Source of the DNA: an uncultured delta proteobacterium
GTDB taxonomy: Bacteria > Desulfobacterota > Binatia > UBA9968
NCBI GenBank assembly: GCA_963804165.1
Contig: CAWDPO010000006.1
Coordinates: 237,552-301,551 of the forward strand
Direction of reading: 5' to 3'
Length of the DNA stretch: 64,000 nt
Shown: in pieces, positions 5,686-9,433 of the stretch
How the letters are laid out: each line of letters starts with the position of its first letter
How positions within the stretch are numbered: position 1 is the stretch's first letter
Made by a program: the position numbers and the translations under genes
Notes under the pieces: model-generated
Told to the model about the DNA's origin: nothing
The model's database searches: none
The model's input: the letters and a program-made list of their open reading frames with translations, nothing else

Positions 5686-6462
5686 TCAAAACGAACCTTC
5701 GACCTCACGTACCGCAGCGCTCCACGGCGCGAGTTTTCTTTGTAAAAGCTCCGCAAGCCAAAACAACCCTAAGGACAAGACCGCCAAAATGAGCAAAATC
5801 ACGAGGGCGAAGGCGGTGTCCAAACTATAATTCGCTTGCAACACCAAATAGCCGAGCCCTTCGTTCGCGGCGACGAACTCGGCGACGATGGCGCCGGTCA
5901 CCGACAGCACGATCGCGACTTTGATACCGGCGAACATATACGGCAGCGAGTTCGGTAAGCGAATCTTCTTGAAAACGTCGCTCTCCGAGGCGCGGTTTAC
6001 GCGCGCCAGTTCGAGCAGCTCCGGCTCGACCTCTTTTAAACCGACGACCGTATTGACCACGATTGGGAAAAATGCGACGAGAAAAGCAATGGCGATCTTC
6101 GAGAACAAGCCATAACCAACCCAGATCACCATCAAGGGCGCGAAGGCGCTCTTGGGCATGGCGTAGAGAATGACGATCAAGGGATAGATCGTATTCTGCA
6201 GATGACGCGAGTAAACCACCGCGATCGCAAAGCCAACGCCAAGGACTAAAGACAAAACGAAACCGCCAAAGGCTTCAATAAAAGTGATCAACGCGTGATT
6301 GCCGAGAATCGGCAGCTTCTTGATAAACGCCGTCACAAGATCGCCCGGCGGCGGCAGGATAAAGGCGGGAACCTTGATCACTTCGACGAGGATCTCCCAC
6401 AGCACCAAGAGCGCGACGAAAAATAGAATGGGCTCGGCGACGTTCTTCCAGGAAGATTTCAC
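5686..6462 (-). CDS. NitT/TauT-family ABC transporter permease
   Basis: LPPPGD, AFAPLMVIWVGYG, GAIVAEFVAANEGLG motifs. Confidence 0.92.
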   Translation of the reverse strand: MKSSWKNVAEPILFFVALLVLWEILVEVIKVPAFILPPPGDLVTAFIKKLPILGNHALITFIEAFGGFVLSLVLGVGFAIAVVYSRHLQNTIYPLIVILYAMPKSAFAPLMVIWVGYGLFSKIAIAFLVAFFPIVVNTVVGLKEVEPELLELARVNRASESDVFKKIRLPNSLPYMFAGIKVAIVLSVTGAIVAEFVAANEGLGYLVLQANYSLDTAFALVILLILAVLSLGLFWLAELLQRKLAPWSAAVREVEGSF

Positions 6463-6758
6463 AATTTCGCTCCGCGCCGACGTTAATGCAAAGACCCTAC
6501 CCTGTCAAGAAAGCCAGCGACTCTGTTCCTCAGCATTTCAATTCTTTGAGCCTCATCAAAAAGGTCCAGATGCGAGGCGCGCGCAGAGTCCGCGAGCGAG
6601 GGCGTACTCTTACAGTACGTTTGAGCGAGCGGACCCAGCGCAACGACAGACTGTGTGAAAACTCTTTCGGAGCCCTTCGACGGTGCTGCTATGTGGATGT
6701 CAAGTCAATAACTCGCAAAGGCTCTTAAATTCTCCTATGACTTTTTCTCCCTACCCAC

Positions 6759-6920
6759 CCAAGAGAGACTCGCTGCTATACGTGGCACGGCACTGGGCCG
6801 TCACACTGACTTGCGATGCGCCCTCTTTGGCACTAAGCCCCGGGATCTCTGTCTCAAGGGTCGAACCTTCAGGAGTCTTGTTCTCCTGGTACTGGCCGTC
6901 GTCGAGTCGTTCCCTGGGGC
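6759..6920 (-). ncRNA. Putative IS110 bridge/seek RNA (two stem/internal-loop/hairpin modules)
   Basis: Loop strands 6773-6779 and 6808-6813 match opposite strands of the IS circle junction; second module 6837-6920 has the same architecture; ends not defined. Confidence 0.65.
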
Positions 6921-8026
6921 ACAGTCTCCTCTTGGGTCAAAGGAGCCGATTGAACTTTTTCTCTCACTTCGTAAGGTCTTTGTTGCATCAACACCACCGC
7001 GGCCCGCACACACAGTTTATGGGCCACCGCCACAATGGCCACTCGAGGACCGAGATGACGCGGATGTTTTTTCGCCACGGTGCGGAAGAACTCTCTCAAC
7101 TCGCCGTCCTGGCGGATCGCCGACCAAGAGGCTTGAATGAGTTTGCTGCGCAGTCTTGGATCTCCGCTGTGAGTAATCGAGCCGCGAGTGGTTCTCTCTC
7201 CGGTGGAGCTCTCGGTGGGTACCAACCCCACAAAGGCCGGCAGCTCACGAATGTTATTGATCTGGCGCCAGTCCCCAATACGGGCCATCATCTGGCTGGC
7301 CACGATCCAGCCGATCCCAGGAAGCGTTTTCAGATACTCGATACACCGAGACAGTTCCGGGTCGTTGTGGCAAAAGCGGCGAATCTCACGGGTGACCTTA
7401 AGGACTTGCTTCTCCCCAAACTCCAGATTGTCCAGCAACTGATCGAGCTTAAAGCGCACCACCGAAGAGCAGGGAAGCTTTCTCAGCTTGGCTTTGACCA
7501 AAAACGACCACTGGCTGCCGGCCGGAGCCGGGGGAAACTCCAGCCCTTCCATCAGCAACAGCGATTTGATGCGTTGCTTCATCGCCACCACCTCGCTGAC
7601 CAGAGCGTCGCGCAGTTGAGTCAAGTGACGCAGCTCTCGATACAAGGTTGTGGGCACATGAATGCTCTTGAGCTGTCCGGCGCGCAGATTCTCTGCCAAT
7701 CCCACGCTGTCGAGCCGATTGGTCTTCACTCGCTGTCCTGGCGCTTTGGGGATCATCGATGGAGAGGCGATCAAGCAAGGGTACCGTTGAGCGACCAACC
7801 CGTCATACAGTCCATAGCCCGTCGGTCCCGCCTCATAGGCAAAGGCTACTTTCTTATCGCCATAGTGCTTACGAACATGGTTTACAAGATACTCGACATT
7901 GTACGGCATGCGCATCGACTTCACAGATCCCTGATGATCGGTAAAGGTCACCGAAATGCTTTTCTTGTCCACATCGAGTCCGCCAAACACATCGTAATCG
8001 CGAGCGATGAAAGTTTCGATTCCCAT
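6869..8026 (-). CDS. IS110-family DEDD recombinase/transposase
   Basis: GLDVDKK, AYEAGPTG, KTNRLDS, LPGIGW, GLVPTESSTGE, AIVAVAHKL; AGGGAGG RBS before ATG 8026. Confidence 0.95.
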   Translation of the reverse strand: MGIETFIARDYDVFGGLDVDKKSISVTFTDHQGSVKSMRMPYNVEYLVNHVRKHYGDKKVAFAYEAGPTGYGLYDGLVAQRYPCLIASPSMIPKAPGQRVKTNRLDSVGLAENLRAGQLKSIHVPTTLYRELRHLTQLRDALVSEVVAMKQRIKSLLLMEGLEFPPAPAGSQWSFLVKAKLRKLPCSSVVRFKLDQLLDNLEFGEKQVLKVTREIRRFCHNDPELSRCIEYLKTLPGIGWIVASQMMARIGDWRQINNIRELPAFVGLVPTESSTGERTTRGSITHSGDPRLRSKLIQASWSAIRQDGELREFFRTVAKKHPRHLGPRVAIVAVAHKLCVRAAVVLMQQRPYEVREKVQSAPLTQEETVPQGTTRRRPVPGEQDS

Positions 8027-8172
8027 CGTAGTGCCTCCCTGGTCCAACGGCCGATAAGTTTCGGCCACTGTACTATCACGGAGCACTCGCGGTATAGCTC
8101 GACATCCCTCATACAAGTCTTAGGGCGAACGGATAAGTACTCAATTTCTAATGAGACCACACGTCGTGAGCA

Positions 8173-8197
8173 GCTTGTCCTGAGCGAAGCCGAAGGA
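8173..8197. repeat. REP-like unit GCTTGTCCTGAGCGAAGCCGAAGGA
   Basis: Inverse-oriented relative of the CCTTCGAC...GCT.AGG unit hit by the IS; lies inside the inner MITE. Confidence 0.6.
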
Positions 8198-8254
8198 AAC
8201 CATGAACGTGTCTTCACACAGTCTGACGAAGCAGGTGGGCCTTTTTCATCAGGC

Positions 8255-9433
8255 TCAAGGCTCTTGCTGTTCGCGTTTCAGCTGGCTGTGATCGAGCAGC
8301 ATCTCCCGCTTGCGCCGAATCATCTCGCGCTCTTGATTGAGAAAGCGCTCCACGGCCCGGCGGAATTTGCCGTCGACGAAATAGTGAACGCTGGTCGTGT
8401 GCTCGGGCTCCAAACCGCGCAGTTGTTTGAAGCTCCCCCCTGCGCCGGCTTCGAAACGCGCTAATCCTGCGCGAATCGAATGCTCGATTGCCGAGTAGTA
8501 ACAGACGTTGAAATGGAGAAACGGATGCTCTTCGAAGCAGCCCCAGTAGCGCCCGTACATGGCGGTATCGTCACGGATGTTAAAGGTGCCAGCGATGATC
8601 TTGCCGTTGCGCTCGGCGAGCATCAGACATAAGTGTGCGGCGAACCGCCGATGCAGCTCATCGAAAAATTCCTGCGTGAGATACTGTCGGCCGTAATAGT
8701 GACGGTCGACGTGGCCTTTGTACAGGCGAAACATGGTGCGCACGTGATGCGTCGTGAGGTCGGCGCCTTCATAGGCGCGAATCGTGATGCCGCGCTCCGC
8801 CACCTCGCGCCGCTCGCGTTTGACTTTATTGCGCCGATCGCTGCGAAAGCTGCCGAGGTAGTCGTCGAAGGAGTTGAAATTGCGGTTTTGCCAGTGGAAC
8901 TGAATGCCGGCGCGCGGAAAGAAACCCACTTGTTCCAGCGACTCCCGTTCGTCGGCGAGACAGAAATTTACGTGAACCGACGAGATTTTATTGTCGGCGG
9001 CGATCTTGGCCAACGCCTGCCCCATGAAACGGATCAACTGGCCGCGATCTTCGTTCGGCGCGGTTAAAAAACGATGACCGGTTACCGGCGTGAACGGCAC
9101 GCCGACGAGCATTTTCGGGTAATATTGAATTCCCGCGTGCTGCGCCGCCTCGGCCCATTCATAGTCGAAGACAAACTCGCCCATGCTGTGGAGCTTTAAA
9201 TACATCGGGCATGCGCCGATGAGTTCGCCCGCTTTCTCGACGATGATGTGGTGCGGCAACCAGCCGGTTTGCTCATTGACGCAGTCCGATTGCTCCAAAC
9301 TGTCGAGCCAATCCCATTTCAAAAAGGGTGTCGCGCCGCCGGTCAATGTGTCCCAGCGCTCGCGCGGCACTTCCGCGACCTTTTGCACGACTCTTAGAGT
9401 GCTCGTGTCCGACATCACCGCCGATCTTAGCAT
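8255..9433 (-). CDS. GNAT-family / FemAB-like N-acetyltransferase (DUF482-type)
   Basis: YLKLHSMGEFVFDYEWA, VPFTPVTG, YGRYWGC, LHFNVCYY, FEAGAGG. Confidence 0.9.
   Translation of the reverse strand: MLRSAVMSDTSTLRVVQKVAEVPRERWDTLTGGATPFLKWDWLDSLEQSDCVNEQTGWLPHHIIVEKAGELIGACPMYLKLHSMGEFVFDYEWAEAAQHAGIQYYPKMLVGVPFTPVTGHRFLTAPNEDRGQLIRFMGQALAKIAADNKISSVHVNFCLADERESLEQVGFFPRAGIQFHWQNRNFNSFDDYLGSFRSDRRNKVKRERREVAERGITIRAYEGADLTTHHVRTMFRLYKGHVDRHYYGRQYLTQEFFDELHRRFAAHLCLMLAERNGKIIAGTFNIRDDTAMYGRYWGCFEEHPFLHFNVCYYSAIEHSIRAGLARFEAGAGGSFKQLRGLEPEHTTSVHYFVDGKFRRAVERFLNQEREMIRRKREMLLDHSQLKREQQEP

What the first reader, a model, noticed from the sequence alone, without database searches (positions are those of the whole stretch)
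6759..6830. Bridge-RNA-like donor-binding loop in the IS110 downstream non-coding end
Seen: joining the IS ends gives the junction ATACAAGT-CT-GCTATGTG. In the non-coding end, 6773-6779 (CTGCTAT) equals the core plus one arm, and 6808-6813 (GACTTG) is the reverse complement of the other arm plus the core C. These two segments are the two sides of an internal loop. It is closed by outer stems (TCGC/GCGA 6770-6773/6813-6816; AAGAG/CTCTT 6761-6765/6823-6827) and an inner hairpin (6782-6804). Known: IS110/IS1111 elements encode bridge/seek RNAs whose loops pair with both strands of donor and target DNA. Inference: this is a programmable RNA-guided recombinase with its RNA on the - strand 3' of the recombinase, probably from a poorly sampled lineage.
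Basis: partly seen in the sequence, partly recalled or inferred. Interest (0 to 1): 0.85.

Follow-up and report, generated by a model that had tools for sequence, protein, structure and literature searches.

The report
Guide RNA of an IS1111-like element
The flagged loop is real and is most likely the donor-binding half of a bridge/seek RNA that steers an IS110/IS1111-type insertion sequence into a repeated hairpin in a soil bacterium, a kind of system first described in 2024.

Summary
Observation confirmed; interpretation supported and extended. Window 6688-8118 is a 1431-bp IS110-family element, transposase on the - strand. It has 4 copies in its genome, uninterrupted target sites and a CT core at both ends. 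Its layout is IS1111-like: 7-bp subterminal inverted repeats, a 92-nt upstream end and a 181-nt downstream end.

The flagged loop folds as described. On the RNA strand, its 5' side complements core-G plus the first 5 bases of the left end. Its 3' side equals the last 5 bases of the right end plus the core. Both matches arise in 30 of 200,000 shuffles.

Across 106 loci the donor ends hardly vary, so arm-to-donor covariation is weak, and one position is never compensated. The base after the 3' arm does track the first target base (87 of 91 loci; 9 independent pairs, none opposite). This mirrors the IS621 handshake guide.

Its arms covary strongly with the flanking target (0 of 10,000 permutations).

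Together they form a roughly 190-nt bridge RNA. It is a new member of a known kind. No direct evidence of the RNA or of activity.

The parts
6688..8118 (-). Insertion sequence, 1431 bp. One of the two flanking CT dinucleotides (6686-6687, 8119-8120) is the core and belongs to it.
   Evidence: 4 copies in the window's genome and uninterrupted sites with a single CT.
6869..8026 (-). Transposase/recombinase gene, 385 aa, IS110 family.
   Evidence: ORF list. Pfam PF01548 and PF02371. NF033542, 202.5 bits. D18, E65, N103, D106 and S274-T275-G276 are conserved in 75-77 of 77 rows.
8101..8107 (-). Left subterminal inverted repeat (GGATGTC in gene sense), 11 nt inside the left end.
   Evidence: Read. 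Conserved in relatives.
6695..6701 (-). Right subterminal inverted repeat (GACATCC in gene sense), 7 nt inside the right end.
   Evidence: Read. Conserved in relatives.
6755..6945 (-). Proposed bridge/seek RNA, about 190 nt. The ends are approximate and are inferred from conservation only.
   Evidence: Third-codon-position identity is 0.60-0.81 across the gene and 0.94 at codons 361-372 (window 6944-6911). 60 distinct relatives align at 88% mean column identity.
6838..6919 (-). Target-binding stem-loop. The outer stem is CCCC.GGG (6912-6919) with CCC.GGGG (6838-6844).
   Evidence: RNAalifold pairs 15-22/94-100, all invariant. Local fold z -2.01.
6894..6901 (-). 5' target guide (CGACGGCC), inside the transposase ORF. 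It complements the gene-sense strand right of the core.
   Evidence: 50 distinct guide/site pairs average 6.64 of 8 Watson-Crick pairs against 5.01 when permuted; 0 of 10,000 permutations reach the observed value. The window's own four sites pair only 6, 3, 5 and 6 of 8.
6870..6889 (-). Inner hairpin of the target loop. It holds the stop codon (6869-6871).
   Evidence: RNAalifold pairs 47-51/63-67. One pair shows compensatory change, AU in 56 and GC in 4.
6851..6861 (-). 3' target guide: ACCC, a bulged U, then UGAG (left target flank plus core AG), followed by AC, the first two bases of the left end (handshake-like).
   Evidence: With one bulged base, identity is 6.46 of 10 against 6.14 permuted; 9 of 10,000 permutations reach it. 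AC follows in 75 of 83 loci.
6761..6827 (-). Outer stem 6821-6827 with 6761-6767.
   Evidence: Folds. Local closure is in the MFE of 40 of 60 relatives.
6808..6813 (-). 5' donor guide CAAGUC. It complements core-G plus left-end bases 1-5.
   Evidence: Across 86 loci, 36 pair at 6 of 6 positions, 48 at 5 of 6 and 2 at 4 of 6.
6782..6806 (-). Inner hairpin of the donor loop.
   Evidence: RNAalifold pairs 135-137/158-160 and 140-143/152-155, all invariant or nearly so.
6772..6779 (-). 3' donor guide AUAGCAG (right-end bases -5 to -1 plus core), followed at 6772 by the handshake-like base.
   Evidence: The seven bases match the right end plus core in 90-91 of 91 loci at each position. The next base equals the first target base in 87 of 91 loci. 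9 independent pairs on the tree, none opposite, p about 0.004.
6698..6703 (-). -35-like hexamer TTGACA. It would face the -10-like hexamer only in the circle.
   Evidence: Read. The spacer would be 17 nt: 10 nt of right end, 2 of core, 5 of left end. Inference only.
8108..8113 (-). -10-like hexamer TATGAG (TATGAT in most relatives).
   Evidence: Junction promoters are known in this family (PMC11187229 introduction).

Best explanation
Window 6688-8118 is an IS1111-like member of the IS110 family. Its - strand encodes a 385-aa DEDD-type recombinase. Overlapping the last ~75 nt of that gene and running ~115 nt beyond it is a ~190-nt bridge/seek RNA with two internal loops.

The first loop (6838-6919) reads the target, a hairpin loop of a REP-like genomic repeat. 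Its 5' arm pairs with the gene-sense strand right of the AG core. Its 3' arm pairs with the opposite strand left of the core.

The second loop (6761-6827), the finding, reads the joined IS ends in the same way. CAAGUC pairs with core-G plus the left end. AUAGCAG pairs with the complement of the right end plus core.

The base after each 3' arm matches the other DNA: A(C) matches the left end, and position 6772 matches the first target base. It would therefore pair only after strand exchange, like the IS621 handshake guides.

Read on the + strand, the core is CT and the whole arrangement equals that of IS621. Gene and RNA are simply transcribed the other way.

Shown here: the element, its copies and uninterrupted sites, target-guide covariation, handshake covariation and the donor match. 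Inferred: that the RNA is made (probably co-transcribed from a promoter formed at the circle junction, then processed), that it binds the recombinase, and that the donor loop is required.
For: Boundaries, 4 copies and uninterrupted sites. Protein family.

Dataset: 106 loci, made of the window, 3 other copies in its genome, 22 genome-contig loci and 80 metagenome loci.

Target 5' arm against the right flank: 6.64 against 5.01 of 8; 0 of 10,000 permutations. With one site per distinct guide (n=22): 7.00 against 5.09, 0 of 10,000. Target 3' arm with one bulge: 9 of 10,000.

Donor loop: the exact 6-mer and 7-mer occur in the right order in 30 of 200,000 shuffles. The 3' arm is identical to the right end plus core in 90-91 of 91 loci. 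The 5' arm pairs at 5 or 6 of 6 positions in 84 of 86 loci. Left-end position 4 is C in 5 loci; the RNA has the matching G in 3.

Handshake-like base: equal to the first target base in 87 of 91 loci, with three states. It changes 11 times on a tree of the gene built without the RNA overlap. 9 independent pairs: 8.9 the same way, 0 opposite. Within the RNA, this base is complementary to the target-guide base that reads the same target position in 84 of 88 loci. That rule was set after seeing the data.

Synonymous sites become conserved exactly where the RNA would start. The local folds of both loops have z about -2.

The arm order matches that reported for IS1111 seekRNAs (PMC11187229 sections 9 and 14). 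Handshake logic as in IS621 (PMC11208158 section 'Handshake base pairing').
Against: There is no direct evidence of an RNA. The only expression data are Logan contigs of four RNA-library runs, 90-99% like the window. They cover parts of the element, and DNA carry-over cannot be excluded.

Rfam has no match at E up to 1. The 246-nt fold is no more stable than shuffles (z 0.10).

The stems are almost all invariant: 1 of 38 predicted pairs shows a compensatory change. The fold therefore rests on thermodynamics and analogy. An alternative long-range closure (6924-6933 with 6761-6769) is the RNAalifold consensus and the MFE in 11 of 60 relatives.

Donor arms: left-end position 3 is C in 21 of 86 loci with no compensating change. 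The base opposite core-G is mismatched in 20 of 86 and left-end position 1 in 9 of 86. Two loci with C at left-end position 4 keep A. One locus has a changed right end and one a changed loop base, neither compensated.

The window's own target guide fits its four sites poorly (6, 3, 5 and 6 of 8). Its last base is the only case (4 of 88 loci, all from this genome) that does not agree with the handshake base.

Handshake and target guide could partly co-vary through en-bloc exchange of the RNA module between lineages. In the worst case there are only two independent origins.

For ISEc11, an 82-nt short seekRNA holding only the target matches sufficed for transposition. The role of the long form is stated to be open (PMC11187229 sections 11 and 14).
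Confidence: 0.8

Rival explanations
1. The region does encode the guide RNA, but only the upstream target loop acts by base pairing. The flagged second stem-loop would be a protein-binding or processing scaffold (the 'long seekRNA' part). The IS ends would be recognised by the recombinase through the subterminal inverted repeats. The donor-like arms would be a by-product, for example an old duplication of the right end.
For: For ISEc11 the 82-nt short seekRNA was enough for transposition, and the role of the long RNA is stated to be open (PMC11187229 sections 11 and 14). Donor-arm mismatches are tolerated in many natural copies (21, 20 and 9 of 86 at three positions). The similarity between the loop's 3' strand and the right end extends beyond the guide (CCAC, two extra bases, then AUAGCAG), as a duplication would give.
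Against: The base after the 3' arm tracks the first target base through 11 changes on the tree, which a mere scaffold does not predict. Both arms sit on the two sides of an internal loop in the same geometry as the target loop. The exact double match is rare by chance (30 of 200,000). Durrant et al. report predicted bridge RNAs in the right end of 93.0% of IS1111 elements. In manually inspected examples, loops were complementary to target and donor (PMC11208160 section 'Diverse IS110s encode bridge RNAs').
Confidence: 0.12
2. The internal copy of the right-end sequence at 6772-6779 is a DNA-level alternative IS end, used for modular excision as with the A'/B' boxes of ISPpu9. It would not be an RNA guide.
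For: ISPpu9 forms several circles from repeated end-like boxes (PMC12288879 abstract and passages). The internal copy is followed by AG, like the true end.
Against: All 4 copies in the window's genome and all loci with both ends recovered end at the outer site. No truncated form ending at 6773 was seen. The alternative-end idea does not explain the complementary 5' arm or the handshake covariation.
Confidence: 0.04
3. Chance resemblance within a conserved 3' untranslated region or terminator.
For: The long fold has z 0.10 and there is no Rfam match.
Against: 30 of 200,000 shuffles. No terminator-like site in 6600-7200. The arms are strictly conserved across 60 distinct relatives while neighbouring loop bases vary. 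Handshake covariation.
Confidence: 0.02

Closest known systems
IS1111-family seekRNAs (ISEc11, ISPa11, ISKpn4; Siddiquee et al. 2024, PMC11187229)
   Same: The guide RNA is encoded 3' of the transposase on the same strand. There are subterminal inverted repeats. The arm complementary to the top strand lies 5' of the arm complementary to the bottom strand. The target is a REP-like hairpin, as for ISPa11. The likely junction promoter would co-transcribe gene and RNA. The sizes of the two proposed modules (about 85 nt and about 180-190 nt) resemble the reported short (70-100 nt) and long (145-170 nt) RNAs.
   Different: The recombinase has 385 aa, against 330-350 reported for IS1111 transposases. 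It is only 25% identical to IS5075. The RNA appears to start inside the ORF, with the 5' target guide in coding sequence. The searches I ran did not find this described. I could not see figures or supplements. Not tested here: RNA sizes and co-purification.
IS621 bridge RNA (Durrant et al. 2024, PMC11208160; Hiraizumi et al. 2024, PMC11208158)
   Same: Two internal loops, target loop first and donor loop second. Each loop reads both strands around a 2-nt core. Handshake bases after the arm that reads the 'right' side match the other DNA. Read on the + strand, the core is CT and the arm order is identical.
   Different: RNA and gene are transcribed antisense to the CT strand, and the RNA lies in the right end, not the left. 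The 3' target arm needs one bulged base. Only the first core base is paired by the 5' arms, and not in all relatives. Protein similarity is confined to the C-terminal domain (E 1e-6).
ISPpu9 (IS110 group, Pseudomonas putida; PMC12288879)
   Same: AG dinucleotide at both junctions in gene sense. It inserts into REP/BIME repeats and forms circular intermediates.
   Different: ISPpu9 lacks subterminal repeats, has its bridge RNA upstream and forms no junction promoter. Its downstream Ssr9 RNA is dispensable.

Membership tests
IS110 family RNA-guided transposase | Match to the curated family model above its cut-off | tested here: met
   NF033542: 202.5 bits against a cut-off of 140, residues 15-350. 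Pfam PF01548 53.9 bits and PF02371 74 bits, both above cut-off.
IS110 family RNA-guided transposase | DEDD catalytic residues in the RuvC-like domain | tested here: inconclusive
   D18, E65 and D106 are present. By pairwise alignment with ISCro4 and IS5075, the third position is N103, which is invariant in 77 of 77 rows. The alignments are weak in this stretch.
IS110 family RNA-guided transposase | Conserved Ser/Thr-Gly in the C-terminal G(L)-P----S(t)G motif | tested here: met
   GLVPTESSTG is present. S274 and T275 are in 77 of 77 rows and G276 in 75 of 77. The motif is as given in PMC11187229 section 6.
IS1111 group | Subterminal inverted repeats of 7-17 bp with terminal extensions | tested here: met
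   GGATGTC / GACATCC, 7 bp (9 of 10 if extended), 11 and 7 nt from the ends. Conserved in relatives. The criterion is from PMC11208160.
IS1111 group | The longer non-coding region lies downstream of the transposase gene | tested here: met
   92 nt upstream against 181 nt downstream.
IS1111 group | Transposase related over its full length to IS1111-type transposases, 330-350 aa long | tested here: inconclusive
   Aligns with IS5075 over residues 16-353 at 25% identity, E 8e-18. Its length of 385 aa is outside the stated range. No tree with ISfinder references could be built because none were available.
Bridge RNA / seekRNA | Loop arms complementary to both strands of the target, covarying with it | tested here: met
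   (0 and 9 of 10,000 permutations).
Bridge RNA / seekRNA | Loop arms complementary to both strands of the joined donor ends, covarying with them | tested here: inconclusive
   Complementarity is present. Covariation cannot be judged because the donor ends are nearly invariant: 3 compensated and 2 uncompensated changes at left-end position 4, and 21 uncompensated at position 3.
Bridge RNA / seekRNA | Handshake bases matching the non-cognate DNA next to the core | tested here: met
   Donor-loop base equals the first target base in 87 of 91 loci. Target-loop AC equals left-end bases 1-2 in 75 of 83 loci.
Bridge RNA / seekRNA | The RNA is expressed and bound by the recombinase and is required for recombination | not testable with these tools
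   Only contigs from RNA libraries were available, which do not prove transcription.
Bridge RNA / seekRNA | Match to a curated RNA family model | tested here: not met
   No Rfam 15 match at E up to 1 in 6400-8400. I did not establish whether Rfam holds a model for IS1111-type bridge RNAs.

The most novel reading that the evidence does not exclude
In this IS1111-like lineage, the second half of the 'long seekRNA' is a true donor-binding loop. Its handshake base is retuned every time the target guide changes, in mirror image to IS621. The 5' target guide is written inside the recombinase ORF, so natural retargeting edits the RNA guide, the handshake base and the protein's C-terminal tail together. 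If so, this would settle the stated open question of what the long seekRNA is for. It would also offer a naturally diversified guide set (22 distinct guides seen) for one recombinase scaffold that has an Asn in place of the third catalytic Asp.
Probability: 0.4. Interest if true: 0.55.

Novelty: new member of a known kind. Interest (0 to 1): 0.35.

Why it matters
RNA-guided IS110/IS1111 recombinases are being developed as programmable genome-rearrangement tools, and IS621 is the best understood. This element adds a well-populated natural family in which the target guide has been rewritten many times: 254 relatives in metagenome contigs, and 22 distinct target guides among the loci examined.

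The family gives sequence-level support that the mirrored IS1111 arrangement uses the same two-loop, handshake logic as IS621. It also shows a guide embedded in coding sequence.

For the genome itself, it explains four identical insertions in a REP-like repeat. It is not a new kind of system.

Tried and rejected
The Rfam scan of 6400-8400 at E up to 1 found nothing.

The promoter and terminator scan of 6600-7200 found nothing. There is therefore no evidence for an internal promoter or a terminator for the RNA.

Folding the 246-nt stretch gave z 0.10. Only the two local stem-loops are modestly better than shuffles.

RNAalifold on 60 distinct relatives gave mostly invariant stems (1 of 38 pairs compensatory) and preferred a long-range closure. 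I could not decide between local and long-range closure, because both partner strands are invariant.

My first idea for a target loop was in the stretch 3' of the flagged loop (UAGGG at about 6745, and GCUUAG at about 6833). I dropped it because these matches are not kept in relatives.

A no-bulge model of the 3' target arm is not better than permuted pairs (1,684 of 10,000).

Expression: the run search listed 24 runs, and I laid four RNA-library runs (X5, X6, X9, X10). Only short Logan contigs at 90-99% likeness lie on parts of the element. These show neither ends, nor strand, nor that the sequence is transcribed.

A search of 401 genomes of the window's phylum found only relatives at 27-36% identity outside the window's genome. 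I did not analyse their RNAs, so the decisive donor-covariation test with divergent ends was not done. The single scans of genome contigs and metagenome contigs were already used.

Supplementary files and figures of the papers were not available. Supplementary Table 5 and Extended Data Fig. 10c of PMC11208160 and the supplementary figures of PMC11187229 may already show comparable IS1111 RNAs, including overlap with the ORF. ISfinder was not available, so I cannot say whether this IS already has a name. 'Not found in print' refers only.

Rows dropped or imperfect. For the 5' target-guide test, 14 of 106 loci had no regex match. These were truncated contigs or loci where my anchor hit the wrong place, such as L024, L046, L047, L050, L054 and L067. 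A further 11 lacked 8 flank bases, leaving 81 loci and 50 distinct pairs. In the 3' target-arm test, five mis-anchored rows (L024, L046/L047, L050, L054) were left in. The tree used 77 full-length rows of 106 loci.

Full report
**Observation.** The element's limits were fixed independently. The window's genome holds four full copies: the window, one on C15 and two on C34. Two of them differ from the window's copy by 2-3 substitutions. The fourth has two substitutions plus an apparent one-base indel (a frame shift in the ungapped comparison). Two uninterrupted sites show window 6660-6687 and 8119-8150 abutting with a 2-base overlap. The IS is therefore 6688-8118 (1431 bp), with a CT dinucleotide on both sides and one CT in the uninterrupted site. 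The - strand of 6757-6832 folds exactly as described: outer stem, internal loop of 6 and 8 nt, inner hairpin (-29.4 kcal/mol, z -1.96, 9 of 200 shuffles as stable). In 200,000 dinucleotide-preserving shuffles of the RNA-sense stretch 6712-6945, both arm sequences occurred in the right order in 30.

**Anatomy.** The - strand carries a 385-aa ORF (8026-6869), preceded by a GGAGG-like site. It matches the IS110 family (Pfam PF01548 and PF02371; NF033542 at 202.5 bits against a cut-off of 140). The upstream end is 92 nt and the downstream end 181 nt. A 7-bp inverted repeat lies 11 and 7 nt inside the ends. This is the IS1111-type layout described in PMC11208160 (passages) and PMC11187229 (sections 6 and 9). 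The protein aligns with the IS1111-group IS5075 transposase over residues 16-353 at 25% identity. It aligns with IS621 and ISCro4 only in the C-terminal domain. The best plasmid-borne relative is 36% identical.

**Relatives.** One scan of genome contigs gave 22 loci, from MAGs labelled Binatia, Deltaproteobacteria, Acidobacteriota, Nitrospira and others, at 51-93% identity. One scan of metagenome contigs found 254 relatives, of which the best 80 were kept, at 77-95% identity. With the four copies from the window's genome this makes 106 loci. For each I extracted the ends, the flanks and four RNA segments.

The 8 nt that precede a conserved AG(A/U)ACC, at window 6894-6901 inside the ORF, are the reverse complement of the right flank. 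They match either core-G plus 7 bases, or 8 bases when the target loop is one base longer. Among 50 distinct guide/site pairs, Watson-Crick pairing averaged 6.64 of 8 (13 pairs at 8, 20 at 7). Permuted pairs averaged 5.01, and 0 of 10,000 permutations reached the observed value. With one site per distinct guide (n=22) the figures were 7.00 against 5.09. On the other side of a hairpin that contains the stop codon, window 6853-6861 repeats the left flank plus the AG core, if one base is bulged out. Identity was 6.46 against 6.14 of 10, with 9 of 10,000 permutations reaching it. Without the bulge there is no signal. The window's own guide fits its four sites only moderately (6, 3, 5 and 6 of 8). 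Its closest relatives carry G where it has C at the last guide base, and they fit better.

**The flagged loop as donor-binding loop.** In RNA sense, its 5' arm CAAGUC complements core-G plus left-end bases 1-5. Its 3' arm AUAGCAG equals right-end bases -5 to -1 plus the core. This is the same geometry as the target loop. The 3' arm is identical to the right end plus core in 90-91 of 91 loci at every position. The 5' arm pairs at 6 of 6 positions in 36 loci, 5 of 6 in 48 and 4 of 6 in 2, out of 86.

- Left-end position 4 is C in five loci. The RNA has the matching G in three (L011, L015, L090) and not in two (L039, L043).
- Left-end position 3 is C in 21 of 86 loci and is never compensated.
- The base opposite core-G is mismatched in 20 of 86 loci.

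**Handshake-like bases.** The base after the donor loop's 3' arm (window 6772) equals the first target base right of the core in 87 of 91 loci. The states are C in 66, G in 17 and U in 4. I built a FastTree tree of 77 full-length elements from the gene without the RNA overlap. On it this base changes at least 11 times. Among 9 independent pairs that differ in it, the target base goes the same way in 8.9 and the opposite way in 0 (sign test about 0.004). Sister elements L069 and L070 share the inner-hairpin loop but differ in this base and in the target guide. This argues for local change rather than only en-bloc exchange. The two bases after the target loop's 3' arm are AC, the first two bases of the left end, in 75 of 83 loci. 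This reproduces, in mirror image, the IS621 handshake guides, which pair with the non-cognate DNA after strand exchange and covary at the position next to the core (PMC11208158, section 'Handshake base pairing' and the legend of Extended Data Fig. 7; PMC13626964, abstract and passages).

**Extent and fold of the RNA.** Majority-base identity at third codon positions is 0.60-0.81 across the gene. It jumps to 0.94 at codons 361-372 (window 6944-6911) and 0.86 at codons 373-384. The constrained RNA therefore seems to start near 6945. Conservation falls again after about 6755. Stems are nearly invariant: RNAalifold finds 38 pairs, of which one shows a compensatory change. Single-sequence MFE closes the donor stem-loop locally in 40 of 60 relatives. 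In 11 of 60 it uses a long-range pairing of 6924-6933 with 6761-6769. I could not decide between the two.

**Expression.** No promoter-like or terminator-like site lies in 6600-7200. When the ends are joined, TTGACA (6703-6698) and TATGAG (8113-8108; TATGAT in most relatives) would be 17 nt apart. This would form a junction promoter like those reported for this family (PMC11187229 introduction and discussion). This is inference. Contigs from four RNA-library runs lie on parts of the element, including 6685-6823 and 6797-7072, at 90-99% likeness. They do not show that the sequence is transcribed.

**Mechanism.** Read on the + strand, the core is CT. Each loop's 5' arm then has the sequence of the left side and each 3' arm complements the core plus the right side, followed by the handshake bases. 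[quoted passage not shown] The gene and RNA are simply transcribed from the other strand, which is the 'reversed order' noted for IS1111 seekRNAs (PMC11187229 abstract). The proposed cycle is as follows:
1. The element excises as a circle.
2. The junction promoter transcribes the gene and the RNA together.
3. The RNA, possibly processed to about 85-nt and about 190-nt forms, loads onto recombinase dimers.
4. The target loop binds a repeat hairpin and the donor loop binds the joined ends.
5. Strands are exchanged at the core, and the handshake bases favour the inserted state.

Only the sequence relations are shown here.

**Target.** In gene sense the target is CCGTTCG(C/T)CCTG, then AG, then C, 2-5 variable bases, then TCGAAGG. 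This is the loop of a short hairpin inside a repeat of roughly 150 bp. The repeat often has terminal inverted repeats and a second, inverted hairpin of a related type. A strict pattern finds 29 copies in the window's genome and looser patterns find 58-101. Relatives with other guides sit in the variant loops or in the second hairpin type.

**Comparison and novelty.** The closest known systems are the IS1111-family seekRNAs and the IS621 bridge RNA. The features defining the IS110 family, the IS1111 layout and a target-binding loop are met. Donor-arm covariation is inconclusive. RNA expression and RNA dependence were not testable here. Unusual points are the 385-aa length, Asn at the third DEDD position (77 of 77 rows) and a target guide inside the ORF. 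I did not find the last point described in the texts I searched. A real caveat is that ISEc11 transposes with the short RNA alone (PMC11187229 sections 11 and 14), so whether the flagged loop is needed remains open.

**Verdict.** This is a new member of a known kind, of moderate interest.

Noticed in passing
window 7718-7720 (codon of N103; motif K101-D106 at about 7709-7726, - strand): The third acidic residue of the DEDD motif appears to be Asn (K-T-N-R-L-D). N103 is invariant in 77 of 77 aligned elements, yet the family is evidently mobile. The assignment rests on weak pairwise alignments with ISCro4 and IS5075.
   Followed up: partly
window 6646-6687 and 8119-8224; own-genome sites listed: The target is a REPIN/BIME-like repeat of roughly 150 bp. 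In the window it has 13-bp terminal inverted repeats (6646-6658 and 8212-8224) and a second, inverted target-like hairpin at about 8172-8195. Flanks resembling its target hairpin (the same 10-14-nt flank motifs) border relatives in MAGs labelled as several different phyla.
   Followed up: partly
window 8121 (+ strand T): The base next to the core on the left-end side is A in gene sense (CCCTA, then AG). All 29 uninterrupted repeats in the genome have G there. Two unrelated occupied sites (L035, L087) show the same change. This could be a mutation that weakens re-excision, or variation in the repeat.
   Followed up: no
window 6894 (+ strand G; last base of the 5' target guide): The window's element and its three sister copies are the only 4 of 88 loci in which the end of the target guide disagrees with the handshake base. 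Close relatives have G in the RNA at this place. The change also turns an Arg codon into Pro.
   Followed up: partly
L004 (own genome, C34:140327-141780): This copy has a one-base insertion in the hairpin loop just before the stop codon, which shifts the last codons (open frame 439 aa against 416). It also has a different bulged base in the 3' target arm.
   Followed up: no
L011, right junction: This locus has AA instead of AG at the right-end side while the left side keeps AG. This could be a trace of recombination at an imperfect core, or a later mutation.
   Followed up: no
window 6772-6785 compared with 6686-6698: The donor loop's 3' strand resembles the right end beyond the guide: CCAC, two extra bases, then AUAGCAG, against CCACAUAGCAG at the true end. 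This could reflect an old duplication of the end, or a bulged longer pairing like that of the target arm.
   Followed up: no
protein, residues 133-316: There is a weak sub-threshold match to the TIGR-Tas endonuclease model NF052498 (27.9 bits against a cut-off of 100).
   Followed up: no
search of 401 genomes of the window's phylum: Outside the window's genome, no relative above 36% identity was found in the 400 other sampled genomes of the same phylum. Relatives at 67-95% occur in MAGs labelled as other groups. This suggests horizontal spread along with the shared repeat. The genomes searched were only a sample.
   Followed up: no
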